Numbered from the stretch's first letter, positions 1 through 23,464 are shown. The stretch is 64,000 nucleotides of DNA from Deltaproteobacteria bacterium UBA5756 (GCA_002418985.1 DIFE01000081.1:1822-65821); one strand, 5' to 3'. Numbers and translations: made by a program. Notes: a model not told the origin generated them from the sequence alone.

Positions 1-1611
1 CGCTTTCTGCCGCCCATGACGGAGCGGGAGCAGTTTGCCCCGCGGGCCCCTGGAAAGACGGGCAGTCCCGGGATACCGTCGTTGCGCGAAGTGACCGAAC
101 GGGCGTTGCTCCGACAGATCGTCTCGGCCGGCGCGCTCGTCAACGGCCAGGGCGACATCCTCTACCTGCATGGCCGTACCGGCCTGTACCTGGAGCCTAC
201 CCCGGGCGAGGCACGAGTCAACAACATCCTGAAGATGGCCCGCGAAGGGTTGCGGCATGAAGTGACCATGGCCTTGCGCAAGGCCGCGGGGACAAAAGGG
301 CTGGTCCGCCACCCGGGCCTGCGCGTCAAAACCAACGGCGAGTTTACGATGGTCAATCTGACGATCTGCCCGGTTGCAGAAGGCCCTGAGGCGACGCCTG
401 AGGCGCCCCTGTATCTGATCATCCTTGAGGAGGCGATGCCCTTCGACCACGGACAGGCGCACCGGGCTGCCGTCTTCCAGACCGGCGAAGGGGCGGCAGG
501 CCCCGATAATGCGGACGCCGACACGCGGATCGCGGCGCTCAAGGAGAAATTGCGGGCCAAGGAAGAACACCTCCAGGCCGCCAACGAGGAACTGGACACC
601 TCCAACGAAGAGCTCAAATCCTCGAACGAGGAGATGCAGTCGGTCAACGAGGAACTGCAATCCACCAACGAGGAACTCGAGACCTCCAAGGAGGAATTGC
701 AGTCGGTCAACGAGGAACTGGCCACGATCAACACTGAACTGCAAACCAAGGTGGCCGACCTGTCGCGGGCCAACAACGACATGAACAACCTGCTGGCAGG
801 CACGGGTATCGGTACCGTCTTCGTGGACCATCAGCTGCGCATCCTGCGCTTCACCCCCACCGCCACCCGGATTATCAACCTGATCCTGAGCGACGTGGGA
901 AGGCCCGTGGGCCACATCGTCTCCAACCTGGTGGGTTACGACCACCTGGTGGAGGACGTGCAGAAGGTGCTGGACACGCTTTTCCCCAAAGAGGTGGTGG
1001 TGCAGAGCCGCGCGGGGGCGTGGTACACGATGCACATCATGCCCTACCGGACGCTGGACAATGTGATCGAGGGCGCCGTGATCACCTTTGTTGACATTAC
1101 CGAAATGAGAAAGGTGCAGGCTGAGATCGGGGAGAACGGACCCGGCTTGCGGGAGCTTGCGGAGTCTCTGAAGCGAAGTGAAGCACTCCTTAGCGCCACG
1201 CAGCGAGTGGCCCGCGTTGGCAGTTGGGAGTGGGATATTGAAAAGCAAACCATGTTCTGGACAGAGGAGCTGTATCGCATCCATGATCTCGAACCGGGCG
1301 AACTCGTGCCCGGGACGCCGGAGCACATCGCCCCCGGCATGGAATGTTACCTGCCGGGGGACCGCCAACTGATCGTGGCTGCCTTTCAGAGGTGCGTGGA
1401 AAAAGGACAGCCGTACGATCTGGAGTTACGTTTCACCACCGCAAAGGGACGGCAGTTGTGGGTTCGCGCGCTCGCCGAGCCCGTATTGGAGAACGGAAAA
1501 GTGGTCCGGGTGGTCGGCGCCATCATGGACATCAGCGATAGCCGACCTCAAGACCTGGCAGATACTGGTGGGAAAGAAAAAGCGCCGGAAAACGATGGAA
1601 ATGCCCGATGA
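1..1611 (+). CDS. PAS-domain sensor of the CheB/CheR-fusion type, C-terminal part (5' end probably off-window)
   Basis: The frame is open from nt 1 (RFLPP precedes the first ATG at 16). It has eight consecutive NEEL/KEEL heptads followed by PAS-like segments (GIGTVFVDHQLRILRFTP; GSWEWDIEKQTMFWTEELYRIHD), the C-terminal architecture of CheB/CheR-PAS fusion proteins. The stop overlaps the next start (ATGA 1608-1611). Confidence 0.6.
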   Translation, partial: RFLPPMTEREQFAPRAPGKTGSPGIPSLREVTERALLRQIVSAGALVNGQGDILYLHGRTGLYLEPTPGEARVNNILKMAREGLRHEVTMALRKAAGTKGLVRHPGLRVKTNGEFTMVNLTICPVAEGPEATPEAPLYLIILEEAMPFDHGQAHRAAVFQTGEGAAGPDNADADTRIAALKEKLRAKEEHLQAANEELDTSNEELKSSNEEMQSVNEELQSTNEELETSKEELQSVNEELATINTELQTKVADLSRANNDMNNLLAGTGIGTVFVDHQLRILRFTPTATRIINLILSDVGRPVGHIVSNLVGYDHLVEDVQKVLDTLFPKEVVVQSRAGAWYTMHIMPYRTLDNVIEGAVITFVDITEMRKVQAEIGENGPGLRELAESLKRSEALLSATQRVARVGSWEWDIEKQTMFWTEELYRIHDLEPGELVPGTPEHIAPGMECYLPGDRQLIVAAFQRCVEKGQPYDLELRFTTAKGRQLWVRALAEPVLENGKVVRVVGAIMDISDSRPQDLADTGGKEKAPENDGNAR

Positions 1612-3449: not shown

Positions 3450-3674
3450 TCGCTGAAATCGACGGACAAGGTAGTTACAGCAATATAAATCCTTGCACCA
3501 TGTTTCGATTGGTAATCCGTCTGTGCCTGTTTCTAAGCAGCTATTTAGTAGTAGGTGCCATACGTAACATCTTCATGCTTCCCCTTATTCACGCCGCAAC
3601 CTTGAGATAAATTAAGATGACTTGATCAGGAATGAGTCGCCCAGCGCAAGAAATGTTTTGCCTCGCCCCAAATA

Positions 3675-3803
3675 CCTAAAATCAAACCCCTCTTGAAAAC
3701 ACCCCCAAAACTCCCTTAATTTTACCAACCGTAAGATTAGTCAGAAGTGACTTATAACATTATTCGGTACTTAGTTATCACACCCCCCTACACAATCTTG
3801 TAG
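3675..3803. repeat. Direct repeat copy A (left island boundary)
   Basis: cctaaaatcaaacccctcttgaaaacacccccaaaactcccttaattttaccaaccgtaagattagtcagaagtgacttataacattattcggtacttagttatcacacccccctacacaatcttgtag. It matches 13530-13657 apart from 2 substitutions, a 1-nt C-run indel and 1 terminal substitution. Confidence 0.9.
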
Positions 3804-3905
3804 CCGCGTGTTATAACTCAGGGGCAAGAAATGTTATAAGTCGGTCCTTGGAATCGCTTGATAGTGTCAAAAAAGGTTTGATTTCTCCAGCAGTACATAA
3901 GACGC

Positions 3906-6371
3906 TCAAGTCTTAAGATTGATAGTTGTTGTGCCACAATTGCAGCATAACACTTCCGGCTGACCTTTGCGTGGCAAGACATACAGATAAGACCTACAGG
4001 TCAGATTCGCACAGCGCATGTGCTCAAGAAGATCTTTGTATGCGTTGACCACTTCTTGAAATTCCTTCGTCTGTAGGTTTGCCCATTCATTAAAGTGAAC
4101 TGATGGGTTAATGGCCCACTGTTCCACATACGTCTTAGCAACCAGGTCCTTAGCCGTGGCCCGCATTGCTGCAAGCATAGTCTTGACTTCCCGAAGGTTC
4201 CATTTCGTGGCGGAGTCCTCACCATCCTCGAGTAATTTTCGCCACCGATTTAACGCTTGAGGCAGGAGGTCGGCGAGATCATGGTGACCGTCGCCCCTGA
4301 ATTCAATTCTAGCACGAAGATTATCGGCAAGGATGAAGGCTACGTATTCGAGGTAGCGGCGCAGCAGCCAAGCTGCTCGGGCCACATCGTCCTTGGCAAG
4401 TTCACCCTCGATTTCGGTCCAGATGTCCTGATCGTCCCAAACGCGCGGGCCGAAGTCGATGGTCCAACCACTGAATGACCGGCTCCTAGAAATCAGGTTT
4501 TCTGTCTTCATGTATTGGAGCCACACGCGGTCATGAGTTGTAAGAATGAATTGTGTATTAGGGAACTCTTTCTTGAGAAACCGGCAAACCTCCCGGCGGT
4601 GCCCGGTGTCAACTGACATGAGTACATCGTCTAGGACAGCGAAGGTGAATTTCTCTCCAAGCGTGTGTTTCATGAGAGCTAAATAAAGGCACAGCCCCAT
4701 GGCGTCCTGATGGCCTTCGCTGTGATAGGCGCCAGGTGGAAAGAGTCCGCGGCCATAGAAATCCACATCAAAACTGAGTTTGGCCGGTTCCGAGATAAGT
4801 CTGCCGTGAAACTTGTCCTCATCCTCATGATTGATCGTACCATAATACTTTACGAAGTCCTGCGCGACCTGATCGTAGATGCCTTCGAGAGTTGCCATAG
4901 CGGAAGTGTTGTAGTGGCTCACAACCTTCTGCGCGACATCACTCCGGGTCTTTTCCACCTCAGCCGTTTGTATTGCCCCCAGTAACCGCTCATAGCGATC
5001 CTGGGCGACGATCAGAGCATCGCGAGCCGCATCCTCGGCAGAGGTGTCAGGCAAAGCTTTCACAGCGGCTTGGCACCCGTCAACCTCCCTCTTCTGCTCC
5101 GCCCCTAGCGACCACCACGAGTTGGTTACGGCTTTGAGGGCTGGACTGACTTGGCTGTGATCTTCGAGGAATTCCTTGAGTGCCTTTTCTGCCTCCCTTA
5201 GTTTGTTGAGGTAAATACCAGTTTCAACGTGTGGTAAGACCGGTTGGAAGCTTTCACTATACTCGACAACCCGCTCCATCGCCCGAATGCGCCCCACCAA
5301 GGTTCCAAGTACGGTGTTAATGCTGCTTCGGAGCTGGTTGAGTAGTTTCTCGATATTCTCCGCGCTAAGGATCTTCTTGCGCAGGTGTTCGCGCAGTTCA
5401 TCTGCGTTCCACGGTCTATCGCAAAGTGGACAGGAGTCTTGTGTGACAAAGTCGAGGCCGGTCTTAACGAATTGGTACTGACGAGCTAGTGTCAACGCTT
5501 GCTCGTCCTCTTTGAGCTTTTCGAGGGCGCCTTTCACATCATTACGGCTGTCAACGAGTGTGGAGGGCTCCGTACCTTGAAGTGCAGTCTGCAAGGCTTC
5601 GAGATCGACCAGAGCCGAGGCCTTGCTCAGGACCGATTTCTGTTTTTGATCCTTGACTTCGGGTAAACCAGCTTTAAAAGACGTGTTCTTGGTCAGTTTT
5701 GTCAGAACGGGTAAGGAAAGAAGCTTGCGCTTCTCGTTCACTTTTGCCAAAACAAGTGCGTGCTCCAGCTTATCAACCTTCAGGACGGTTCTTAGCTCGG
5801 TCGCTGCCGTGATGCGATTTCGTTCTGCTTCATCCGCCTTGCTCTTTTGCTTGTTGTTAAATGTCGTGAAAGTCTTCCTCAGGCGTCCGATATGGTCGAG
5901 GCGAAGCAGCGTTTGAACATCGGTAGAGCGCTGACCAGGGGGTGTGATGATGTACTTGACAATCTCTCGGCGGGAGAGTGCAAACTCGGGATGGGTTTCC
6001 AACTCAGCGATAATATGTCTAACGGCTCCATCATCGGGCGTCACCGTGACGGTGCCGGGGTTCTTCACCGAGCGGTGAATAGTGATGGTCTTATTTAGCG
6101 AAGGAATATTGCAGGTCATGGTGACATTGGCGTCTTCCGGATGGGTACGTTGATCCACGTGTGGTGCGTGTAGTTTGACGCTCAGTCCTGCCGTGCCCTG
6201 CCCAGACAAGCGGGTTATGTCACCTGTAAGGCAGAATTCAATGGCGTCGACAACACCACTCTTGCCGGTACCGTTGGGACCACATATCCCAAAATTCTTG
6301 CCACCCAAGTCCAAGTCAAGGGTCCGAATACCACGGAACTCTGCGATGTGGAGGGTCTTAATGCGGATCAC
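3906..6371 (-). CDS. SMC/Rad50-like ABC ATPase with a coiled-coil zinc hook and a C-terminal Cys4 domain (RloC/AAA_13-like architecture); candidate defence protein
   Basis: GTG start overlaps the stop of the upstream 72-aa ORF (GTGA). Walker A GPNGTGKSG (aa 31-38); helical insert of roughly aa 165-520 with central CPLC (aa 314-317, nt 5421-5432); signature-like SEGHQ (551-555); Walker B FAVLDD (577-582); TTHD (611-614); ~200-aa C-terminal domain ending CANLTC...CCNCG. Confidence 0.7.
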   Translation of the reverse strand: MIRIKTLHIAEFRGIRTLDLDLGGKNFGICGPNGTGKSGVVDAIEFCLTGDITRLSGQGTAGLSVKLHAPHVDQRTHPEDANVTMTCNIPSLNKTITIHRSVKNPGTVTVTPDDGAVRHIIAELETHPEFALSRREIVKYIITPPGQRSTDVQTLLRLDHIGRLRKTFTTFNNKQKSKADEAERNRITAATELRTVLKVDKLEHALVLAKVNEKRKLLSLPVLTKLTKNTSFKAGLPEVKDQKQKSVLSKASALVDLEALQTALQGTEPSTLVDSRNDVKGALEKLKEDEQALTLARQYQFVKTGLDFVTQDSCPLCDRPWNADELREHLRKKILSAENIEKLLNQLRSSINTVLGTLVGRIRAMERVVEYSESFQPVLPHVETGIYLNKLREAEKALKEFLEDHSQVSPALKAVTNSWWSLGAEQKREVDGCQAAVKALPDTSAEDAARDALIVAQDRYERLLGAIQTAEVEKTRSDVAQKVVSHYNTSAMATLEGIYDQVAQDFVKYYGTINHEDEDKFHGRLISEPAKLSFDVDFYGRGLFPPGAYHSEGHQDAMGLCLYLALMKHTLGEKFTFAVLDDVLMSVDTGHRREVCRFLKKEFPNTQFILTTHDRVWLQYMKTENLISRSRSFSGWTIDFGPRVWDDQDIWTEIEGELAKDDVARAAWLLRRYLEYVAFILADNLRARIEFRGDGHHDLADLLPQALNRWRKLLEDGEDSATKWNLREVKTMLAAMRATAKDLVAKTYVEQWAINPSVHFNEWANLQTKEFQEVVNAYKDLLEHMRCANLTCRSYLYVLPRKGQPEVLCCNCGTTTINLKT

Positions 6372-6586
6372 TTTTGATCCTCCGGCGTCGATTCGAATAG
6401 CATTGCGATTACCTGCTCTGGCGTCTTCGGTATAAAACCTTTGCTCAGGAAACTGTATAGTCTGTCTATCCCATCATCTGAAATCGCAGGATCAGCTCGC
6501 ATCGCGGCAACAAACTGCTCCAGTACCTGAAGAACGGTCGGCGACATAACTACGTTACTGTTTTCCTCGGCCTTATCCTTAGCCAT
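6368..6586 (-). CDS. Small acidic hypothetical protein translationally coupled to the ATPase
   Basis: 72 aa with no recognisable motif. Its stop overlaps the ATPase GTG start, and its own ATG is overlapped by an upstream 46-aa ORF. Confidence 0.45.
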   Translation of the reverse strand: MAKDKAEENSNVVMSPTVLQVLEQFVAAMRADPAISDDGIDRLYSFLSKGFIPKTPEQVIAMLFESTPEDQK

Positions 6587-6719
6587 GTCTATTCCGTATG
6601 CCTGCGACGTAGTTTAGAATAGTTGGGTGGATCGGTATAGAGATTCTTTGTGCCTGTTGTTCTTCGACTCTTAACCCATAAACCCGTTGTTTCAACTTGC
6701 CGGAGCTGTTATCCTTCAT
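6579..6719 (-). CDS. Possible 46-aa leader ORF (below the ORF-track cutoff)
   Basis: Hand translation gives MKDNSSGKLKQRVYGLRVEEQQAQRISIPIHPTILNYVAGIRNRHG. RBS GGAG lies 7 nt upstream of the ATG at 6719. The stop TAA overlaps the start of the 72-aa ORF (ATGGCTAA). Confidence 0.2.
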   Translation of the reverse strand: MKDNSSGKLKQRVYGLRVEEQQAQRISIPIHPTILNYVAGIRNRHG

Positions 6720-6811
6720 CTGCTTGCTCCAAGTTTCATGATGGCGTTACTTTTATCGATTATTGCTTACTAATAGCATACATATTATTAACAATTACTC
6801 AAGAAAAGCTT

Positions 6812-6838
6812 TTATAGGATATTGGAATTACCCTATAA
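6812..6838 (-). terminator. Hairpin immediately after the Dam-like ORF stop (weak intrinsic terminator candidate)
   Basis: On the minus strand: TTATAGG-13 nt-CCTATAA followed by AAGCTTTTCTT. The stem is AT-rich, so stability is doubtful. Confidence 0.3.
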
Positions 6839-7519
6839 TTATGGGACATAGTTCCCAACCAACAATTCTGTCACCTTCTTTTGTTTGTTGGCCCCTGGCA
6901 TCTTATAGCTCGTCGTGACCTCCTCGATAGAATAATCTTTGAACAGTTCCCGGATCTCCCGGACGTCATTAATGGACACGATAAACCTCCCCTGAATCCC
7001 CGCCAGTACATCCCGAAGCCTCGCGAAGTCCTCTCGATTGAATATCCCCTCACCATAATCATTTTCATTCCCATAATAGGGTGGATCGATATAGAAAAAG
7101 GTCTCCGGCCGGTCAAACCGTTCGATAAGCTTTTGATAATGCATGTTCTCGATGTAGACCCGGGACAGGCGGAGATGAGCCTCAGAAAGTTCCTCTTCGA
7201 TCCTTAATAGATTTAATGATGACGGCCGAGTCGGGCCAATATTGAAAGTCTGCCCCACCACTTTGGCCCCGTATCCGGCCCTCAGAAGGTAGTAGAAACG
7301 CACCGCCCGCTGGATATCGGTGAGGGTATCCGGATTCTCGGCCTTAAACCGGGAGAATTCCTCCCTGGCAACGAGAATCCACTTGAGATAGCGGATAAAT
7401 TCCTCAAGATGGTGCTGGATAACCCGGTACAGCGTTACCAGGTCCTTGTTGATATCGTTAATGATCTCGACCTTTGATTCTTCCTTCTTGAACAACAGCC
7501 ATGCAGCCCCTGCAAACAC
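6839..7519 (-). CDS. D12-class N6-adenine DNA methyltransferase (Dam-like), catalytic portion; N-terminal segment missing from this frame
   Basis: DPPY motif (FYIDPPYYG). FxGxG-like FAGAAW sits at the very N-terminus, followed by NDINKDL. The N-terminal W-x-G-x-K segment that normally precedes motif I is absent from this frame (see finding). Confidence 0.75.
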   Translation of the reverse strand: MFAGAAWLLFKKEESKVEIINDINKDLVTLYRVIQHHLEEFIRYLKWILVAREEFSRFKAENPDTLTDIQRAVRFYYLLRAGYGAKVVGQTFNIGPTRPSSLNLLRIEEELSEAHLRLSRVYIENMHYQKLIERFDRPETFFYIDPPYYGNENDYGEGIFNREDFARLRDVLAGIQGRFIVSINDVREIRELFKDYSIEEVTTSYKMPGANKQKKVTELLVGNYVP

Positions 7520-7520
7520 C

Positions 7521-7874
7521 TCACAGTAGCAGGTATGTTTCGTAGTCGGCGCAGACCTGACAGAATGCGGCCACGATATCGATGGACATTCCCCATCGTT
7601 TGTTGCCGTTATGGTCTATGATGTCGCCCGCCAGATCACGGCTTTCCGCTGACCAATTGTCGAGGGTGCTTTTGGGAACCTCGATACCGGTCAGCTTGTA
7701 GATCCCCGAACAGATGTCGACCCTGTCCATGCCGGATTTCTTGATTGCTGTCGAGACGGCCTGGCGGACCCTGGCGCTGACGTTCAGGCTGCCGGGAGCA
7801 GGAGGTCTTTCCGGTTTCAGGTACTCGAAGAGTCCTCCCTGTCGACTGTCAATTTTCTGTTTAACTTTTGACAT
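7521..7874 (-). CDS. Hypothetical protein; probable N-terminal fragment of the frameshifted Dam-like methyltransferase
   Basis: RBS GAGG lies 6 nt upstream of the ATG. The C-terminus NGNKRWG-x19-ETYLLL resembles the SAM-binding N-terminal segment of Dam enzymes. The stop is 1 nt from the Dam-frame GTG. Confidence 0.45.
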   Translation of the reverse strand: MSKVKQKIDSRQGGLFEYLKPERPPAPGSLNVSARVRQAVSTAIKKSGMDRVDICSGIYKLTGIEVPKSTLDNWSAESRDLAGDIIDHNGNKRWGMSIDIVAAFCQVCADYETYLLL

Positions 7875-8027
7875 TGCAAACCTCGGTGCTGTTTGTTAGA
7901 ATCAAACCAGATTTGAAAATATGACGGGGGGAGTGGCTCTTGAGGAAAAAGGAAGAAGGGATACCTGATGAGGTTTTTGCCTTCGCCTTGCCGGTCAAAG
8001 AGAAGATGCGCAAGCTCATGGAACTCC

Positions 8028-8387
8028 TCATTCCTCTTCCCTGTTTTGAATACAGCATGAAAACCGGAGATTGTTCGGAATTTGAGTGTCCAACCGGAGA
8101 CGGTGAAGAGTCTCTTTGCAGAACCAGGAGACTCCTCGCTGAGCAACTGGCAGCCGCGATACAAATAAACAGATACGATCCGCTGCATCCCGAATATAAA
8201 AGGCTATCTCAGAAGGAGAAAACCCTGCTTCTGAAAGTTCACGAACTAAACGGCGGATATGTTCCTCCTCCTCACCTGATTCCACGAAGGGAAAAGGGGT
8301 AGAGGCGCATATGGCGGCCATACAGAGCATGCGATCTCGCAACATTAATGATCGCTCAGTCTGCATTGTTACTGGGTTGCATTTCAT
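8028..8387 (-). CDS. Hypothetical protein
   Basis: The ATG lies 9 nt after the stop of the upstream HTH gene, with RBS AGGAGAG. No motif recognised. It competes with plus-strand ORF 7940-8302. Confidence 0.4.
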   Translation of the reverse strand: MKCNPVTMQTERSLMLRDRMLCMAAICASTPFPFVESGEEEEHIRRLVRELSEAGFSPSEIAFYIRDAADRICLFVSRLPVAQRGVSWFCKETLHRLRLDTQIPNNLRFSCCIQNREEE

Positions 8388-8396
8388 GAGTCTCTC

Positions 8397-8618
8397 CTAT
8401 GCGGCCCGTTTTGGTTTTTCGTCCGGCCATAGATCTGACACCTGGACACCCAGGGAATCTGCGATCGCCTGGCGGATGTGCGGTGATACCTGTCTGCCGA
8501 TCATTACGTGGTACACGTTCTGGCGGGTACAGCCAATCTTGCGGGCTATTTCTGCGCCCGTTACATCTTTGTCAATCATAAGTTTCTGGATCTTCTTTTT
8601 GGTCTGGGTTGTTGCCAT
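8397..8618 (-). CDS. Small HTH DNA-binding protein (Ner/Cro-like)
   Basis: 73 aa with HTH VTGAEIARKIGCTRQNVYHVMIG. It is divergent from the CI-like repressor across a 61-bp spacer. Confidence 0.6.
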   Translation of the reverse strand: MATTQTKKKIQKLMIDKDVTGAEIARKIGCTRQNVYHVMIGRQVSPHIRQAIADSLGVQVSDLWPDEKPKRAA

Positions 8619-8679
8619 GGTTAGATTATTATATGCACGATGATGTGTTGTAAAGGAAAAATATGCAGCATAGTGCGTA

Positions 8680-9363
8680 ATGAAGAACGAACATAGCGAT
8701 ATAGGGCAGAGGTTGAAGATGTTGAGGGGTTCTCTATCTCAAACTGAGATGGGAAAACTCTTTAATATGCCATTACGTACATATCAGTCATATGAGTATG
8801 GGCAGCGGGTACCTCCCTCGCATGCTCTATCAAGTATTGCAAGAAAGTTCGGAACCACTGTTGAATGGATATTAACCGGTGTGGACGAGCGAGCGGACGA
8901 AGAAACAGGTAAAGGCGTACTGAAGAAAGAACCTTCTCCAGGAGAGAAGCTGGGGCAGGATTTCGCATATATTCCCCAGGTGAATGGAAGAATCAGCGCA
9001 GGAAAAGGTTTAGCTCCTGATAATGTTATCGAAATGAGGGTCGCCTTTCGAAAAGAATGGATTGCGCGAAAGGGTAACGCAAAAGACATGGTTCTTATTA
9101 AGGTATCCGGTGATAGCATGGATCCGACCCTTTTGAATGGCGATCTTGTTCTCATCGATCGTGGCAGAAAATATTTTGAACCGCAGGGCGGTATTTACGC
9201 CATTGCAGTGGACGATACGATAATGATAAAGCGAGTCCAGGTTGTTGGGGATCGTGCAAAGATTATCAGTGACAATAAAATGTATGAGCCTTTTGAGGTT
9301 AGTGCCGATCAGGTAAAGATAAACGGCAAAGTCATCTGGTTCGCCAGGGAATTGGAGAGGTAG
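8680..9363 (+). CDS. LexA/CI-type repressor (XRE HTH + S24 peptidase)
   Basis: HTH SQTEMGKLFNMPLRTYQSYEYGQR; Ala-Gly cleavage candidate ISAGKG; S24 Ser VSGDSMDPTL and Lys IMIKRV. Confidence 0.8.
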   Translation: MKNEHSDIGQRLKMLRGSLSQTEMGKLFNMPLRTYQSYEYGQRVPPSHALSSIARKFGTTVEWILTGVDERADEETGKGVLKKEPSPGEKLGQDFAYIPQVNGRISAGKGLAPDNVIEMRVAFRKEWIARKGNAKDMVLIKVSGDSMDPTLLNGDLVLIDRGRKYFEPQGGIYAIAVDDTIMIKRVQVVGDRAKIISDNKMYEPFEVSADQVKINGKVIWFARELER

Positions 9364-9485
9364 AAAATGGGTTCGTTGTTGACTCGCTGCGGATCAGTCC
9401 GCAATCTATTACAGTTAGTTTGAACAGGTATCGATATCTTCTGTTGGCTCTGTAAAGGCAGGATTCATCCGATTGAGCGGGTTTT

Positions 9486-10280
9486 ATGAATAATTCTGAT
9501 TTTTTCAGCATCTGCTACGCACATCAAGAGCCACAAGTTTCGTGGTGTGGCGTTATTGTAAAGGACGGGGAAGACTTCGATCTTTTCATGAGAAATGAGG
9601 TTGCTTCCCGCCTCCACGATGCGAGCGGCGCGAGAGAATTTGAGGACTGTCTGCGTAGTCTTGTCGCGACAGGCTTTAATCGAGACAATCTGGAAGACAT
9701 TCTTGCTGCTGAGATTCCCGAAGATCGGGACTGGGCCGTCGGTGAAGCTATAGCGGAAGCTTATTTGAGCGAAAAGCATGGTATTATTTGGCCCTGGAAC
9801 ACAGAACGGGATAAGCGAACACCCCGAGCCAGTCTTCCGGGTGCCGATCTAATTGGTTTCGATGTCAGAAGAGAAGGTATTCGATTTGCCTTGGGCGAAG
9901 TAAAAACTTCGAGCGATAAAGATGTTCCGCCCAACGTCATGAACGGACGGACCGGTATGATACATCAGCTGGAAAACCTAGCCGACAATCTAGGGTTAAT
10001 CAACCAATTGCTCAAGTGGCTGTTCTTTCGATGCAGAGCCACAGATCACGAAAAATCCTTCAAAGCGGCCAGCACTCTCTTTCTTAGTTCTGGCAAGAAG
10101 GCCGTCGCCTTATTTGGCGTGTTAGTTCGTGATACAGCGCCCGACGAACTAGACTTAAGAAACCGAGGAAACGCATTTGCCAAGAAACTCAAAGATCCCA
10201 CTGAGTGTCAGTTGGTAGCAGTGTACTTACCATGCGCAGTTGCGGATCTTCCCGCACGCGTCTCGGGAGGCACAGTGTGA
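9486..10280 (+). CDS. hamA: PD-(D/E)xK nuclease-fold protein, HamA-like (Hachiman)
   Basis: 264 aa. D121 (PGADLIGFD) ... E138-V-K140 (FALGEVKTS) fits a PD-ExK motif. It lies immediately upstream of, and is start/stop-coupled to, a large SF2 helicase. Confidence 0.5.
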   Translation: MNNSDFFSICYAHQEPQVSWCGVIVKDGEDFDLFMRNEVASRLHDASGAREFEDCLRSLVATGFNRDNLEDILAAEIPEDRDWAVGEAIAEAYLSEKHGIIWPWNTERDKRTPRASLPGADLIGFDVRREGIRFALGEVKTSSDKDVPPNVMNGRTGMIHQLENLADNLGLINQLLKWLFFRCRATDHEKSFKAASTLFLSSGKKAVALFGVLVRDTAPDELDLRNRGNAFAKKLKDPTECQLVAVYLPCAVADLPARVSGGTV

Positions 10281-13200
10281 GTCATTGGTTACTGGACAGC
10301 CTTGCCGAAACAGTACAGTTGGCGCTAAAACAGGCAGATGGCGTGGAGATCCAACGTGCGTTGATGGGCTCCCCTTCCGGCAATGACGTGGGTCTTATCG
10401 AAAGAACTGTTGAAGCGTTGGAATTAGCAGTGTTTGACCTTGTTGCTGAAGGCACGCCACGCGAAGAAAACGCTAGAAATGAGCTTAGAAGGATTGCTGC
10501 CGATGCTTTCCGGTTGATTCGTGTATTGCCCAGACGAGATGATCCGATTGAATGCGCAAGACTCTTGTTACGGGGTGGCGCACTCGCTGTGCTCGGGGAC
10601 AAGGGGTCGGACGCGGCACGATGGCTACGCGAAGATGAATGGCCCGATTTGCCGCTGGAATCGAGCGATTGGAGTGAACGTACCTGGGCAACAATCATCG
10701 ATATTTGGTTGCGATTAATTCGCAAGCATGGTTGGTCCGACCGCGACAAAGTGCTGAAGTGTATCTCTACACTACGTGATTCTCAGGTTGTGTTCGAAAG
10801 AGATTATCTTGCTGGTAGAGAGCACATACATGCCAAATCCGCAGCTCTCGAACTTGTCGGTCTCTATCATCTTGCTAAGGCGGCAGAAATACTTGCTTAT
10901 TACATAACCGATGGTGTGGTGGATGGGAAGTATCAAATTCATCAACTCCTAGAACAGCACTTTGACCGAGTGTTTGCCGTTTGTGAGTACGCCCAAATGT
11001 ATGAGTTAGAACCTTTAGCCCGACTTCTTTCGGCCTGTTCGTCTCAAATGGCAGACAATTCCATCTGGACGGTTACTCGCGCTGTCAACTCAAGGGTAAC
11101 AAGGTTTGTCGAGACGCTCGTTGCCCAAGGCCGAGGCGATCGAGCAATTTTTGATGTCTTGCCTCCACAGCGCCGCTCGTTGGCAGAAAAGGGTTTGCTC
11201 GGTTCAAGTCGGAGGGCGGTCGTAGTGAGTCTTCCTACATCTAGCGGCAAAACATTGATTGCGCAGTTTCGTATTCTTCAAGCCTTGAACCAGTTCGAGC
11301 TGGAGCGCGGCTGGGTAGCTTATCTTGTTCCGACCCGAGTGTTAGTTAACCAGATAACGCGCCAGTTGCGCCGTGATTTTGAGCCGCTATCGGTTGTTGT
11401 TGAAAAGGTCAGTCCGGCTTTGGAGGTCGACAATATAGAGTCTGAATTGTTGCGTCAAGAAGATCAGACACGGGCCTTTCGAGTGCTTGTTACTACTCCC
11501 GAAAAGCTGGATCTGATGTTACGACAAGGTCTGGAGGCAACAATCGGTCGCCCTTTGACATTGGTCGTTGTGGACGAGGCTCACAACATTCAGGGTGTTC
11601 AACGAGGGCTTAAGCTTGAACTATTGTTGGCAACCATCAACAACGAGTGTCAAAGAGCACAGTTCCTGTTATTAACACCTTTCATCAGGAATTCGGAAGA
11701 AGTCGCCCGGTGGCTTGGAGGTCAGAGTTCCGATGACATAAACCTGGCTCTAGACTGGCAACCCAACGATCGCATTGTTGGAATCGTGCAGGCCGAAAAA
11801 GGTGACGCTTTGGACGGGAGAAGTTTCGATTATCAGCTTTGTTTAGAGACAGTGCATACTACCAGAAATACTCTGACAATCGACAATTCTCTGTTCCTAC
11901 CGAAGAATCCTGATATTGCATCAACTTTTAGTAAAGCGTCGAATGCTAGCAGCTTGGCGGCTATTACCGCCCAGCGTTTGCACGAAAGAGGGCCGGTAAT
12001 TGTAATGCACGCCCGACCTGATTGGGTGTGGGCTCTGGCTAAGAAGTTCATGATTCCAGAGAACAAGAGGGAACTCTCTACCGAAAAAGTCAAGTTGGTT
12101 CAACAATTTCTTGACCTCGAATATGGTGTTAGTTTCCAGTTGCAAGACTTGCTTTCATACGGTGTTGGAATCCATCATGCTGGTCTGTCAGATGATGTTC
12201 GCCTTCTAATGGAATGGTTGTTCGAAGAGAACGAACTAGATTTTCTGGTGGCAACCACAACCATTGCCCAAGGGGTAAATTTTCCAGTTACCGCCGTAGT
12301 CATGGCTTCACATCAGTATCCTATTGACAAGAAAATGACGGATATGTCACCCGAAGATTTTTGGAACATCGCGGGTCGGGCCGGAAGAATAGGTCAAGGT
12401 AGCGTTGGAATTGTAACGCTGGTTGCTGACAATGATAGTAAGGCTTCGATTCTTCGTAATTTTATTAATCACCAGAGCGGCGAACTGAATTCCGCTCTTG
12501 TTACTCTGGCTAGAGAAGCCGGAGAGATGCTCGAAAACCTTGGAGCAATCGTTTACAGACATCCGGAATGGTCCGCTTTTCTTCAATACCTAGCGCATAC
12601 ATATCGCCAGATGGGCAAACCCGAGGCGTTTGTGAATGAAATCGAGCAGGTCCTTCGTGGAACGTTCGGATACGAGAAACTTCGTAGCCAAGACTCTTCT
12701 TTGGCAAGGAAACTGCTTGATGGAATTCTAGTTTATGCTCGCTATCTCGGCGAACCTGGACAGCCCCTTAAACTTGTTGACAGCACTGGTTTCTCACTTC
12801 AAAGTATAAGGACCGTCCTCGGCGCCGCAAGTGTTGAGGGAATTCATGGCGACGCATGGAATTCTCAATCCCTATTCAACGAAAACAACCGCGATCTTCA
12901 AAAAATGATGGGCGTTTTGCTCAATGTTCCCGAATTGCGGGAGAACTTGAAGGCTGTGACGGGCGGCAGGTCCCCCGATGGGAATAAGCTTGCGTCAATC
13001 GTGAAAGACTGGGTAAATGGGGTTTCAGTTCCAGAGATAACCAAGCGCCATTTCTTCAAGGAGGGCGACGACTTTACGTTGGCCATGACAACATGCGGAC
13101 GAAACATCTTCGGCAGGCTGACTCAGACTGCCGCATGGGGCCTTGGGGCTTTGCTTTCAATTACTGGCAGCGGTTTGTCTGAAGAGCAGTTGTTGTCGCT

Positions 13201-13450
13201 GAGCAATCTGCCATCGCAAGTTTACTACGGCGTTAACAACGATTCCGCCGTTGCCTTGAGACTGCTAGGCGTACCAAGAACTGCCGCGACATCCCTGGCA
13301 AGTTTTATGGGCGATGTTCTCACTGAACCGCTAGCCAGTATCCGTGGACAGTTGCGCGACATGCCTGCCGCAAGTTGGCAACAAGCGCTTGGACAACACC
13401 ACGGAGAGGTTTACCAAAGAGTATGGAAGGTTCTAGAAGGATTAGACTAA
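10277..13450 (+). CDS. hamB: Ski2/Hel308-like SF2 DEAH helicase, HamB-like (Hachiman)
   Basis: Motif I LPTSSGKT, motif II VVDEAHNI, motif V ATTTIAQGVNFP, motif VI AGRAGRIGQG. The preferred start is the GTG at 10277 overlapping the upstream TGA; the ATG at 10232 is an alternative. The helicase core is flanked by N- and C-terminal regions of about 320 and 355 aa. Confidence 0.7.
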   Translation: MSHWLLDSLAETVQLALKQADGVEIQRALMGSPSGNDVGLIERTVEALELAVFDLVAEGTPREENARNELRRIAADAFRLIRVLPRRDDPIECARLLLRGGALAVLGDKGSDAARWLREDEWPDLPLESSDWSERTWATIIDIWLRLIRKHGWSDRDKVLKCISTLRDSQVVFERDYLAGREHIHAKSAALELVGLYHLAKAAEILAYYITDGVVDGKYQIHQLLEQHFDRVFAVCEYAQMYELEPLARLLSACSSQMADNSIWTVTRAVNSRVTRFVETLVAQGRGDRAIFDVLPPQRRSLAEKGLLGSSRRAVVVSLPTSSGKTLIAQFRILQALNQFELERGWVAYLVPTRVLVNQITRQLRRDFEPLSVVVEKVSPALEVDNIESELLRQEDQTRAFRVLVTTPEKLDLMLRQGLEATIGRPLTLVVVDEAHNIQGVQRGLKLELLLATINNECQRAQFLLLTPFIRNSEEVARWLGGQSSDDINLALDWQPNDRIVGIVQAEKGDALDGRSFDYQLCLETVHTTRNTLTIDNSLFLPKNPDIASTFSKASNASSLAAITAQRLHERGPVIVMHARPDWVWALAKKFMIPENKRELSTEKVKLVQQFLDLEYGVSFQLQDLLSYGVGIHHAGLSDDVRLLMEWLFEENELDFLVATTTIAQGVNFPVTAVVMASHQYPIDKKMTDMSPEDFWNIAGRAGRIGQGSVGIVTLVADNDSKASILRNFINHQSGELNSALVTLAREAGEMLENLGAIVYRHPEWSAFLQYLAHTYRQMGKPEAFVNEIEQVLRGTFGYEKLRSQDSSLARKLLDGILVYARYLGEPGQPLKLVDSTGFSLQSIRTVLGAASVEGIHGDAWNSQSLFNENNRDLQKMMGVLLNVPELRENLKAVTGGRSPDGNKLASIVKDWVNGVSVPEITKRHFFKEGDDFTLAMTTCGRNIFGRLTQTAAWGLGALLSITGSGLSEEQLLSLSNLPSQVYYGVNNDSAVALRLLGVPRTAATSLASFMGDVLTEPLASIRGQLRDMPAASWQQALGQHHGEVYQRVWKVLEGLD

Positions 13451-13529
13451 CAACAAAAGTAACCCTCGAACATAGAGACTTGTCAGATCGGCAACATACG
13501 ACAGCAGAAATACTTTTTCGCTTAATCCC

Positions 13530-13657
13530 CCTAAAATCAAACCTCCCTTGAAAACACCCCCAAAACTCCCTTAATTTTACCAACCGTAAGATTAGTCAGA
13601 AGTGACTTATAACATTATTCGGTACTTAGTTATCACACCCCCTACACAATCTTTTAG
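13530..13657. repeat. Direct repeat copy B (right island boundary)
   Basis: See copy A. Weaker similarity extends about 30 nt upstream in both copies (gcaagaaatgtttt versus gcagaaatacttttt). Confidence 0.9.
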
Positions 13658-13661
13658 TCAA

Positions 13662-13690
13662 TTGACACTTTTAGTGTGAAAGTGATATAA
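13662..13690 (+). promoter_or_regulatory. Sigma70-like promoter candidate for the TMEM175-like gene
   Basis: TTGACA (13662-13667), 17-nt spacer, ATATAA (13685-13690). It begins a few nt after repeat copy B ends. Confidence 0.35.
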
Positions 13691-13701
13691 GCGTTAACAT
13701 A

Positions 13702-23204: not shown

Positions 23205-23464
23205 TTCTCCAAAGACAGGCAGACGCAACGATGGGCGGACAGCGCAAGGCTGCTGGCCGGGGGGCGTTCCCCTCGCCTTTAACTACACGACTGCGTTTCC
23301 GCCCACTTCCAGCGGTATAATTTCATGAGGTTATGGGTCAGGCAGATAATCTGCCATTCAGAGGCGACCTTTTCCAGACCCCGCAGCCGGAAATGCTTCT
23401 ATCGTTAAAGAAGGCTGGGAAGAGCCGGCGCATTCTGGACCCCGGGGTAGGCGTCATAAAAGAA

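What the first reader, a model, noticed from the sequence alone, without database searches (positions are those of the whole stretch)
3646..13657. About 10 kb of AT-richer accessory DNA bracketed by ~128-bp near-identical direct repeats, with no recombinase inside
Copy A (3675-3803) and copy B (13530-13657) are in direct orientation. They differ only by two substitutions near the 5' end, a 1-nt indel in a C-run and one substitution at the 3' end. Looser similarity continues about 30 nt further upstream in both copies. Everything between them is accessory or phage-like: a zinc-hook ATPase, a Dam-like methyltransferase, a CI/Cro pair and a Hachiman-like pair. The genes just outside are ordinary chromosomal genes (sensor kinases on the left, a TMEM175-like channel on the right). 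Hand counts of single 60-nt lines gave about 42-58% GC inside versus about 60% outside. I saw no integrase, transposase or tRNA gene, so this is either a decayed or trans-mobilised island with attL/attR-like ends, or an insertion between two copies of a dispersed element. The 12-mer GCAAGAAATGTT also flanks copy A on both sides (3646-3657 and 3824-3835).
Basis: seen in the sequence. Interest (0 to 1): 0.75.

Follow-up and report, generated by a model that had tools for sequence, protein, structure and literature searches.

The report
Defective Mu-like prophage with defence cargo
The 10-kb block is the gutted remains of a Mu-type transposable phage that lost its transposase and all virion genes in one deletion but kept both ends, its repressor and several anti-phage genes; the "direct repeats" are two copies of the same phage end, one of them an orphan left by an earlier phage that landed at the same spot just upstream of a host promoter.

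Summary
Two ~124-nt direct copies (97.6% identical) bracket ~9.85 kb of lower-GC DNA (0.49 vs 0.54-0.60), with no recombinase inside. The repeats are not attL/attR cores. Each is the repressor-proximal end of a Mu-like transposable phage plus a 6-bp target duplication.

The true element is 3799-13646. It has TG...CA tips, imperfect inverted ends (33/44 nt) and CAATCT on both sides. Copy A (3646-3792) lies outside it, as an orphan end of an older element.

Intact relatives carry a repressor, ner and orf160, then a DDE transposase, a MuB-like ATPase, Gam, GemA, Mor and tail genes, and a methylase at the far end. In the window, a single deletion (junction 7533-7538) fuses orf160 codon ~112 to methylase codon 38. 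The cargo next to both ends is defence-related: the Hachiman-like PDC-M23 pair and an LmuB-like ATPase. Relatives carry other defence genes in the same slot.

So this is a known kind of element. One unexpected result came out of the comparison: in 9 of 18 host junctions of this phage family, a perfect TTGACA lies 12-15 nt outside the tip. This suggests insertion targeted upstream of promoters, which would explain the abutted ends.

The parts
3646..3792 (+). Orphan repressor-side (attL-type) end of an older Mu-like element, with its tip ...CACCCCCCTACA at 3792.
   Evidence: It is 97.6% identical to 13530-13646 and 93-96% identical to ends in other genomes. It matches the end profile built from family tips. 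No phage gene lies to its left, only 196 nt and then the kinase stop at 3449.
3793..3798 (.). CAATCT, left copy of the 6-bp target-site duplication. It is also the spacer between the two abutted tips.
   Evidence: Read directly from the sequence. It is identical to 13647-13652.
3799..3887 (+). Tail-side (attR-type) end of the defective prophage: TGTAGCCGCG-TGTTATAAC-N14-TGTTATAAG..., with two putative transposase-binding sites at 3809-3817 and 3831-3839.
   Evidence: 33 of 44 nt match the inverted attL-type tip, against 0 of 20000 shuffles (I1). It is 81.5% identical to the equivalent junction in L011/L014. The same tip in the intact 37.9-kb viral contig (L041) is followed by a methylase and tail/baseplate genes.
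3906..6371 (-). Cargo: an 821-aa SMC-family ATPase (LmuB-like) with a Cys-rich C-terminal extension.
   Evidence: Pfam SMC_N 2e-18 and AAA_23 2.7e-15; PADLOC LmuB 2.1e-28. The same slot holds different ORFs in L041 and L027.
6368..6586 (-). 72-aa ORF overlapping the ATPase start. It is probably its partner; function unknown.
   Evidence: Called in every independent assembly. No significant family hit (only a weak, below-cutoff Pfam FliG_N match).
6839..7532 (-). 5'-truncated phage D12-class adenine methyltransferase, missing its first 37 codons.
   Evidence: 87% identical to residues 38-262 of the L041 phage methylase. The Pfam match starts at profile position 28. Nucleotide homology to L041 ends at 7532.
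7533..7538 (.). Junction of the internal deletion that removed the transposase, MuB-like ATPase, Gam, GemA, Mor, lysis, head and tail genes.
   Evidence: Homology to L019 (early region) ends at 7539 and homology to L041 (methylase) ends at 7532.
7539..7874 (-). 3'-truncated orf160: the first ~112 codons of a 160-aa early gene. The ORF reads on into the junction and stops at 7521.
   Evidence: 90% identical to P0002 over 117 aa. All 106 homologues are ~160 aa. It matches phrog_2345 and hits orf3 of Pseudomonas Mu-like phages such as MP22 and JBD88a.
7940..8302 (+). Conserved 120-aa ORF of the early-control region; function unknown.
   Evidence: Called in all assemblies and in L019/L020. It lies within the 91%-identical block 7539-8629.
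8397..8618 (-). Ner/Cro-like HTH protein, the first gene of the leftward early operon.
   Evidence: Matches PHROG transcriptional repressor families. Precomputed Pfam hits HTH_35/HTH_26.
8719..9363 (+). cI-like repressor (HTH + S24 autopeptidase), transcribed divergently from ner.
   Evidence: Pfam Peptidase_S24 5.8e-23 and HTH_3; phrog_4 2e-48. 82-86% nucleotide identity to L008/L011/L019.
9486..13450 (+). Cargo between the repressor and the end: the PDC-M23A (9486-10280) and PDC-M23B (10277-13450) Hachiman-like pair.
   Evidence: PADLOC PDC-M23A 6e-100 and PDC-M23B E=0, with HamB 8e-65 as the next family. Pfam DEAD/ResIII/Helicase_C.
13505..13646 (+). The prophage's own repressor-side (attL-type) end, with its tip at 13646.
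   Evidence: The same terminal sequence bounds the Smithella ME-1 Mu-like prophage (L016, tip at 8098) and the 36-41-kb viral contigs.
13647..13652 (.). CAATCT, right copy of the target-site duplication.
   Evidence: Homology to the relatives L026/L027 starts at 13650.
13662..13695 (+). Native promoter-like region of the TMEM175-family gene (TTGACA at 13662-13667, then ...AAAGTGATATAAGCG). It starts 15 nt outside the phage tip.
   Evidence: Conserved in phage-free distant relatives L028 and L033. It is not scored by the strict consensus scan, because its -10-like hexamer ends in G.

Best explanation
Window 3799-13646 is a Mu-like (DDE-transposable) temperate phage that inserted 15 nt upstream of the -35 hexamer of the TMEM175-family gene and duplicated the 6 bp CAATCT.

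One illegitimate deletion (junction 7533-7538) then removed everything from codon ~113 of the early gene orf160 to codon 37 of the phage methylase. That stretch held the transposase, the MuB-like ATPase, Gam, GemA, Mor and the lysis, head and tail genes. What remains is:
- both transposon ends;
- the cI/ner switch;
- two cargo slots next to the ends, holding PDC-M23AB (Hachiman-like) downstream of cI and an LmuB-like SMC ATPase with a 72-aa partner.

The element is now a fixed, non-autonomous defence and immunity island.

The "direct repeat" arises because the same 6 bp had already been used by an earlier related phage. Only its repressor-side end survives (3646-3792). It abuts the new element's tail-side tip across one copy of the duplication.

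Shown directly: the ends, the duplication, the deletion junction, homology to intact phages, and the absence of transposition genes.

Inferred: the order of the two insertions and the deletion of the older element; that the intact ends could still be mobilised in trans by a related helper; and that the cargo genes are expressed and protective.
For: Ends:
- Across 8 loci from other genomes, the repeat is conserved at 92-96% up to ...CCCCCCTACA, and the flanks diverge immediately after it.
- The same tip bounds a Smithella ME-1 prophage next to its repressor and 36-41-kb IMG/VR phage contigs. One contig (L077/L097, 38,025 nt) runs exactly tip to tip.
- The other arm (3799-) matches the inverted tip at 33 of 44 nt, against 0 of 20000 shuffles. 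In the intact viral contig L041 it precedes a methylase, tail fibre and baseplate genes.

Target duplication: CAATCT lies on both sides.

Family identity:
- orf160 matches phrog_2345 and orf3 of Pseudomonas Mu-like phages.
- In the intact relatives, orf160 is followed by a 573-600-aa transposase (phrog_310, 3.6e-57; a weak rve hit; retroviral integrase cores in the PDB at 1e-6).
- Next come a MuB-like ATPase (phrog_296, 5e-46), then Gam, GemA and Mor.

Deletion:
- L019 homology (91%) stops at 7539 and L041 methylase homology (83% nucleotide, 87% amino acid from residue 38) stops at 7532.
- No transposition or virion gene is found anywhere in the window.

Assembly: the same structure appears in at least 6 independent assemblies that span one or both repeats.

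Cargo slot: other family members carry other cargo between the end and the repressor, most of it defence-related. These are PD-Lambda-1 (1e-166), DruA with CARF-STK-AAA, and a methylase-Mrr fusion.
Against: - No intact helper phage of this family was seen in the window, and I could not scan the rest of the genome, so mobilisation in trans is untested.
- The 6-bp duplication is documented for this one element only; Mu itself makes 5 bp.
- The origin of the orphan end is inferred. There is no allele with only the older element. The near relatives L026/L027 carry a different (tail-side, inverted) end remnant at the same site, so the local history is more complex than two insertions.
- The analogous abutted junction in MAG RA.bin14 (spacer GCTTCG) has no matching duplication among the flanks recovered.
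- All the sequences are metagenome assemblies.
Confidence: 0.88

Rival explanations
1. An integrative island bounded by attL/attR, in which the ~128-nt direct repeat is the shared core of a site-specific (tyrosine or serine) recombination. The integrase has been lost or acts in trans.
For: The repeats are direct and near-identical, they bracket AT-richer accessory DNA, and no recombinase lies inside.
Against: - The repeat is the terminal segment of Mu-like phages and ends exactly at a TG...CA tip.
- The element has inverted ends plus a 6-bp duplication.
- The intact relatives examined carry a DDE transposase and a MuB-like ATPase in the early regions held, and none shows an integrase there.
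- There is no tRNA or other usual att target.
- In other genomes, single copies sit at one end of a phage, not in pairs around it.
Confidence: 0.03
2. The DNA was inserted between two copies of a dispersed short repeat (MITE or REP-like) that has nothing to do with the insertion.
For: Contigs in several assemblies break at the repeat, as happens with multi-copy repeats.
Against: - Whole-collection scans found it in only a handful of contigs, each with a Mu-type architecture beside it.
- The contig breaks are explained by the two or three phage ends per genome; the break at 3721 equals the first shared 31-mer.
- There is no MITE-like symmetry.
Confidence: 0.03
3. The orphan end (copy A) is not from a separate earlier insertion. 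It is left over from a tandem duplication of the same prophage, or from aberrant replicative transposition, followed by deletion of most of one copy.
For: The two copies are 97.6% identical and are separated from the element by exactly the sequence that flanks it (CAATCT), as a head-to-tail dimer junction would be. Mu-type replicative transposition is known to cause adjacent rearrangements (general knowledge), and synteny is broken on the left side.
Against: - Inward of 3675/13530 the two copies fall to roughly 55% identity while still matching the family motif. This fits two different family members better than a recent duplicate.
- In L011 the equivalent abutted end belongs to a distinct element with its own repressor and cargo.
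- The same promoter was hit independently, in the opposite orientation, in L026/L027.
Confidence: 0.12

Closest known systems
Transposable (Mu-like) temperate phages: Mu and the Pseudomonas D3112/MP22/JBD group ('saltoviruses'), and their deletion derivatives (mini-Mu, defective Mu-like prophages)
   Same: - TG...CA tips and inverted terminal transposase-site pairs.
- A short target duplication.
- Repressor and ner at one end, followed in intact relatives by a DDE transposase and a AAA+ target-capture protein.
- Gam, GemA and Mor, a contractile-tail module, and a DNA-modification gene at the far end.
- A mini-Mu likewise keeps only the ends and the control region.
   Different: - The duplication is 6 bp rather than 5 bp.
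- The repressor is an S24 (LexA/cI-type) protein.
- There are extra early genes (orf160, a 99-aa IclR-type HTH protein, a ~311-337-aa protein).
- Ends of two elements lie 6 nt apart, whereas Mu cis-immunity excludes insertions within ~1.5-5 kb of an end (PMC7350765).
- Insertions cluster 12-15 nt from TTGACA, whereas Mu has only a degenerate 5-bp preference (PMC7350765).
- The hosts are uncultivated Syntrophorhabdaceae, Smithella, Nitrospirota and similar lineages.
Burkholderia transposable phage KS10 (PMC2628397)
   Same: It has two short direct transposase-binding repeats at each end, with the left pair inverted relative to the right pair. That is the same layout as the two TGT(G/T)ATAA(C/G) sites 22 nt apart at both ends here.
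   Different: The site sequences are unrelated, and no flanking direct repeats were found for KS10.
Hotspots of P. aeruginosa saltovirus Ab30 at a fixed distance from a REP-like motif (PMC5977238)
   Same: A transposable phage inserts at a fixed distance from a short host sequence motif without orientation bias.
   Different: There the motif is a 35-bp REP-like palindrome 55-61 bp away and accounts for about 5% of lytic-cycle insertions. Here it is a -35 hexamer with a -10-like TAT 16-19 nt beyond it, 12-15 nt away, and the counts are compatible with most or all established prophages.
Defence-gene hotspots of prophages and satellites (P2/P4-type cargo slots), and 'grounded' prophages (PMC6379469)
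   Same: Variable anti-phage systems occupy a fixed slot next to conserved phage genes, and a decayed prophage is retained with its accessory genes.
   Different: The slots lie between the transposon ends and the first and last phage genes of a Mu-like phage. As far as my searches went, this position is not documented for Mu-like phages.
Tn7-like elements stacked at attTn7
   Same: Repeated use of one insertion point, defined by a sequence on one side, gives arrays of elements whose ends abut across the same duplicated bases (general knowledge).
   Different: There is no TnsD/TniQ-type selector, orientation is not fixed, and the apparent determinant is a promoter element rather than a conserved gene.

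Membership tests
Mu-like transposable phage (derivative) | Termini 5'-TG...CA-3' with inverted terminal transposase-binding repeats | tested here: met
   TGTAG at 3799 and CTACA at 13646. 33 of 44 nt are identical in inverted alignment (0 of 20000 shuffles), with two TGTkATAAs sites at the same offsets in both ends. The same tips bound intact relatives.
Mu-like transposable phage (derivative) | Short direct duplication of the target flanking the element | tested here: met
   CAATCT at 3793-3798 and 13647-13652. This is one element only, and it is 6 bp rather than Mu's 5 bp.
Mu-like transposable phage (derivative) | DDE (MuA-type) transposase and AAA+ MuB-type protein encoded by the element | tested here: not met
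   Absent from the element and from the whole window. Present in the intact relatives L016, L019, L088 and L092: phrog_310 3.6e-57, phrog_296 5e-46, and integrase-core matches in the PDB. The element is therefore a defective derivative, not an autonomous member.
Mu-like transposable phage (derivative) | Repressor/ner control region next to one end, with the early operon reading inward | tested here: met
   cI-S24 (8719-9363) lies divergent from the Cro/Ner-like HTH gene (8397-8618), then orf160. The order is the same as in L016, L019 and L088.
Mu-like transposable phage (derivative) | Mu-type middle/late functions (Gam, GemA, Mor, head and contractile-tail genes) | tested here: not met
   None in the window. 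They are present in relatives. Their loss is explained by the deletion junction at 7533-7538.
Site-specific integrative island (attL/attR) | Tyrosine or serine recombinase, with direct repeats representing the crossover core in a conserved target such as a tRNA gene | tested here: not met
   No integrase domain and no tRNA or tmRNA. The repeat ends at a transposon tip plus a target duplication.
Dispersed repeat / MITE | Many copies per genome, independent of other mobile-element genes | tested here: not met
   There are 4 matching stretches in the metagenome collection and 4 in 185,579 species genomes. All lie at Mu-type ends.
Hachiman (HamA/HamB) | HamB superfamily-2 helicase plus a HamA (DUF1837) partner | tested here: inconclusive
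   The helicase hits HamB models (8e-65) but fits the candidate family PDC-M23B far better (E=0). The partner fits PDC-M23A (6e-100) and has no Pfam domain. I file it as PDC-M23, Hachiman-like.
Lamassu | LmuB SMC ATPase together with an LmuA effector (and LmuC) | tested here: not met
   There is an LmuB-like hit (2.1e-28), but no LmuA-type effector gene. The only neighbour is a 72-aa ORF without matches.

The most novel reading that the evidence does not exclude
This uncultivated family of Mu-like phages does not insert quasi-randomly. It targets the DNA ~12-15 bp upstream of the -35 hexamer of strong sigma70-type promoters (about -49 relative to the start site), in either orientation. It presumably does so by recognising the -35 element or the RNA polymerase holoenzyme bound to it.

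Evidence:
- Nine of 18 independent phage-host junctions have a perfect TTGACA at 12-15 nt, reading away from the phage.
- All nine are followed by TAT 16-19 nt later.
- 50% is what is expected if every insertion has one promoter-facing side.
- By my own binomial estimate, the chance expectation per junction is about 1e-3, so nine of 18 is far beyond chance even after allowing for all hexamers and offsets.
- The TMEM175 promoter is native, because phage-free relatives keep it. It was hit at least three times: by the orphan, by the present element, and by an inverted end remnant in L026/L027 at 14 nt.

Repeated hits on one promoter would also explain tips abutted across one duplication, in contrast to Mu cis-immunity.
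Probability: 0.5. Interest if true: 0.75.

Novelty: new member of a known kind. Interest (0 to 1): 0.5.

Why it matters
For the finding itself, the puzzle of an island with long direct repeats and no recombinase is resolved into something ordinary. It is a grounded Mu-like prophage whose missing recombinase was a DDE transposase lost in one deletion. The case is a useful caution: direct repeats around accessory DNA can be two like ends of tandem transposable elements rather than att sites.

Two family-level points go beyond that.

First, the intervals between each transposon end and the first or last phage gene are variable cargo slots. They hold PDC-M23, PD-Lambda-1, Druantia-type DruA, methylase-nuclease fusions and an LmuB-like ATPase. 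This extends the idea of prophage defence hotspots to transposable phages of anaerobic syntrophs.

Second, if the promoter-upstream targeting is real, it would be a bacterial-virus counterpart of the way yeast Ty elements use the transcription machinery to find safe insertion sites. It would be a Mu relative with near site-specific target choice and no cis-immunity. Both features are directly testable and could be useful for targeted insertion tools.

Tried and rejected
- **ncRNA or riboswitch reading of the repeat.** Rfam gave nothing at the gathering threshold or at E<=10, and there is no tRNA.
- **Empty-site search.** Contigs carrying the exact kinase and TMEM175 proteins all have the island or break at the repeat. 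The look-ups for the 214-aa TMEM175 start and the 406-aa ORF found no record. The near relatives (93-94% TMEM175) have no empty site but an inverted tail-side end remnant. The distant relatives show the probable ancestral neighbour, a sigma54 activator.
- **L026's 160-aa gene next to that remnant.** It is not an orf160 homologue.
- **A shared chromosomal target to explain the flank similarity between the window and L012.** Rejected, because the downstream genes are unrelated. What the flanks share is the TTGACA promoter element.
- **PHROG annotation of the genes beyond the abutted junction in L011.** No hits, so I could not show that the second RA.bin14 element is a full phage.
- **Extra end-pattern scans of viral contigs.** They mostly returned known loci or chance matches (L084, L086, L118, L119).
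- **A second example of the 6-bp duplication.** I found no contig for which I held both junctions.
- **The 12-mer GCAAGAAATGTT.** Not significant.
- **The strict sigma70 scan.** It does not score the TMEM175 promoter, because its -10-like hexamer ends in G. I therefore call it promoter-like, supported by conservation.

Full report
**1. Checking the observation**

The two copies are real. Window 3675-3798 and 13530-13652 align over 124 columns with two substitutions and one 1-nt indel. This is the only long direct repeat in the 64 kb.

GC is 0.492 between the copies, against 0.596 to the left and 0.542 to the right. It is lower than in any same-size window to the right (0.519-0.557).

There is no tRNA and no Rfam family, and no ORF inside has an integrase or transposase domain.
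- The zinc-hook ATPase is an SMC_N/AAA_23 protein that best matches LmuB models (2e-28).
- The Hachiman-like pair is the PADLOC candidate system PDC-M23 (A 6e-100, B E=0, HamB 8e-65).

The same structure is present, base for base, in several independent assemblies (ENA, three JGI metagenomes, Logan). The Logan contigs break at 3721, exactly where a 31-mer graph would first meet sequence shared by the two copies. The arrangement is therefore not an assembly artefact.

**2. What the repeat is**

I scanned the genome and metagenome collections for a 22-mer from the repeat. It turned up in only a few other contigs: a deltaproteobacterial MAG (RA.bin14), a Syntrophobacterales MAG, and three metagenomes.

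When all the copies are aligned, the conserved block (92-96% identical) ends sharply at ...CACCCCCCTACA, and every flank diverges after that.

In the window, copy A is followed by CAATCT and then TGTAGCCGCGTGTTATAAC.... This is an inverted, imperfect copy of the repeat's own tip (I1; 33 of 44 nt, 0 of 20000 shuffles). Copy B is followed by the same CAATCT and then by host sequence.

That is the signature of a transposon, not an att core. The element runs from TG at 3799 to CA at 13646, has inverted ends, and is flanked by a 6-bp target duplication.

**3. Which transposon**

The small ORF at 7521-7874 matches phrog_2345. By tblastn it hits orf3 of Pseudomonas Mu-like phages (MP22, JBD88a and others), which sits between the repressor/ner genes and the transposase. 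Its 106 metagenomic homologues are all about 160 aa long, whereas the window copy has 117.

Contigs carrying these homologues show a canonical transposable-phage early region:
- repressor, ner-like gene and orf160;
- a 99-aa IclR-type HTH protein and a ~311-337-aa protein;
- a 573-600-aa protein;
- a ~413-aa AAA_22 protein;
- then Gam, GemA, Mor, lysis genes and terminase.

The 573-aa protein is phrog_310 "transposase" (3.6e-57). It has a weak rve hit and matches retroviral integrase catalytic cores in the PDB (1e-6). The AAA protein is phrog_296 "DNA transposition protein" (5e-46).

The Smithella ME-1 prophage begins with TGTGGAGGGGTGTGATAACTAAGTA..., which is the reverse complement of the window repeat's tip. 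IMG/VR phage contigs of 36-41 kb end the same way, and one 38,025-nt contig runs exactly from one tip type to the other.

The second tip type (TGTAGCCGC-TGTTATAA...) occurs in an intact 37.9-kb viral contig. That contig also encodes a 93%-identical orf160 (L041/L046/L095). Behind this tip come two cargo ORFs, a 262-aa methylase, tail-fibre genes and baseplate genes, all reading toward the tip.

So copy B is the repressor-side ("left", attL-type) end, and 3799-3887 is the tail-side ("right", attR-type) end.

**4. How the element lost its recombinase**

- Nucleotide homology to the intact early region (L019, 91%) stops at window 7539, inside orf160.
- The window methylase is 87% identical to the L041 phage methylase from residue 38 onward.
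- Homology to the methylase of the intact phage (L041, 83% nucleotide) stops at 7532.

A single deletion with its junction at 7533-7538 therefore removed the transposase, the MuB-like ATPase and all middle and late genes. None of these genes is found anywhere in the 64 kb. What is left is a natural "mini-Mu" with cargo.

**5. Cargo**

Between the left end and the repressor sits PDC-M23AB. Between the right end and the methylase sit the LmuB-like ATPase and a 72-aa ORF.

Other family members fill the left slot with different genes:
- PD-Lambda-1 (1e-166, L088);
- DruA plus a CARF-STK-AAA-like pair (L015);
- a methylase-Mrr fusion plus unknown ORFs (L011).

Other members also fill the right slot with other ORFs. 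These intervals behave like the defence-gene hotspots known from other temperate phages.

**6. Why two like ends sit in tandem**

Copy A (3646-3792) has no phage genes to its left, only 196 nt and then the intact kinase gene. I read it as the orphan left end of an older related element.

Inward of 3675/13530 the two copies drop to about 55% identity while still matching a family motif. This argues for two different family members rather than a duplicate.

The same arrangement (left-end tip, 6 nt, right-end tip) occurs in RA.bin14/L011, where the left end belongs to a real element with its own repressor and cargo. Degenerate or inverted versions occur in L042 and L095. This contrasts with Mu, whose cis-immunity excludes insertions within ~1.5-5 kb of an end (PMC7350765).

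**7. The insertion site**

Close relatives (TMEM175 93-94% identical; L026, L027) share the right flank from window 13650 onward. At that point they carry an inverted, decaying right-end remnant instead. More distant Syntrophorhabdus relatives have a divergent sigma54 activator 110-145 nt upstream and no phage end. They conserve the promoter-like TTGACA...AAAGTGATATAAGCG. The promoter is therefore native, and it has been hit repeatedly.

I tabulated every independent phage-host junction I could recover. A perfect TTGACA lies 12-15 nt outside the tip, reading away from the phage, in 9 of 18 junctions. Each is followed by TAT 16-19 nt later:
- six left-end junctions: the window (15 nt), L012 (14), L039 (13), L064 (14), L069 (13) and L049 (14);
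- three right-end junctions: L027 (14), L107 (12) and L104 (14).

The flanks are otherwise unrelated. Where enough sequence is held, an outward ORF follows the promoter.

By my own binomial estimate the chance expectation is about 1e-3 per junction. Fifty per cent is the value expected if every insertion has one promoter-facing side.

I consider the association solid but the sample small. Whether the cause is sequence recognition, recruitment by RNA polymerase, or selection among survivors is open. A related precedent exists: hotspots of the Pseudomonas saltovirus Ab30 lie 55-61 bp from a REP-like motif, without orientation bias (PMC5977238).

Two hits on the same promoter-defined 6 bp explain the window's structure exactly, because the flank is identical on both sides. 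They do not explain the RA.bin14 junction, whose spacer (GCTTCG) matches none of the recovered flanks.

**8. Verdict**

The finding is a defective Mu-like prophage plus an orphan end of a predecessor. The element itself is of modest interest. The family-level hints are the parts worth following up: promoter-upstream targeting, absence of cis-immunity, a 6-bp duplication, and defence slots at both ends.

Noticed in passing
L012 127, L039 6305, L049 51, L064 128, L069 209, L104 10013, L107 15535, L027 ~1788; window 13646: In 9 of 18 phage-host junctions of this Mu-like family, a perfect TTGACA lies 12-15 nt outside the tip, with TAT 16-19 nt further on. It reads away from the phage and occurs next to either end type. 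This suggests insertion targeted upstream of promoters.
   Followed up: partly
L011 5629-5636 (= L014), L042 ~2007-2040, L095 17807-17818: These are further cases of two Mu-type tips abutted across 6-10 nt: left|GCTTCG|right in MAG RA.bin14, a degenerate left-like tip next to a right tip in L042, and two right ends tip-to-tip in an IMG/VR contig. This is unlike Mu cis-immunity. The RA.bin14 spacer has no matching duplication among the recovered flanks.
   Followed up: partly
L026 ~9880-9948 and L027 ~1720-1788: Close relatives of the window organism carry a decaying, inverted tail-side end remnant at the same TMEM175 promoter (14 nt from TTGACA), next to an ABM-domain gene. The left-hand synteny differs in every lineage examined (kinases, ABM/UbiA, or sigma54 activator).
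   Followed up: partly
L088 5739-7636; L015 3129-7955; L011 1081-5486: The slot between the left end and the repressor holds different cargo in different family members, most of it defence-related: PD-Lambda-1 (1e-166) with a weak ZorE-like HNH hit (2.9e-06), DruA with a CARF-STK-AAA-like pair, and an N6/N4 methylase fused to an Mrr-type nuclease followed by three unknown ORFs.
   Followed up: partly
window 553-762: Seven in-frame 21-nt tandem units (NEEL-type heptads) lie in the coiled-coil segment of the CheB/CheR-PAS sensor gene (family D1).
   Followed up: no
window 23296-23386; L001 224-314; L003 6331-6421: A ~92-nt sequence at 23.3 kb recurs, inverted and 89% identical, upstream of the CheB/CheR-PAS gene just left of the window. 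Its nature is unknown.
   Followed up: no
L003 1-6200 (left of the window in the same organism): The region upstream of the sensor genes holds an IS200-type Y1 transposase, a DUF3670/SNF2 helicase and a PIN/RHH toxin-antitoxin pair. The whole neighbourhood is therefore rich in mobile and defence-type genes.
   Followed up: no
L037-L040 and L062-L070, ~105-125 nt from the left-end tip; window 13535-13555: A palindrome, AATCAAA-N6-TTTGATT, is conserved inside the left ends of most family members and is degenerate in the window lineage. It may be a binding site for a host or phage protein.
   Followed up: no
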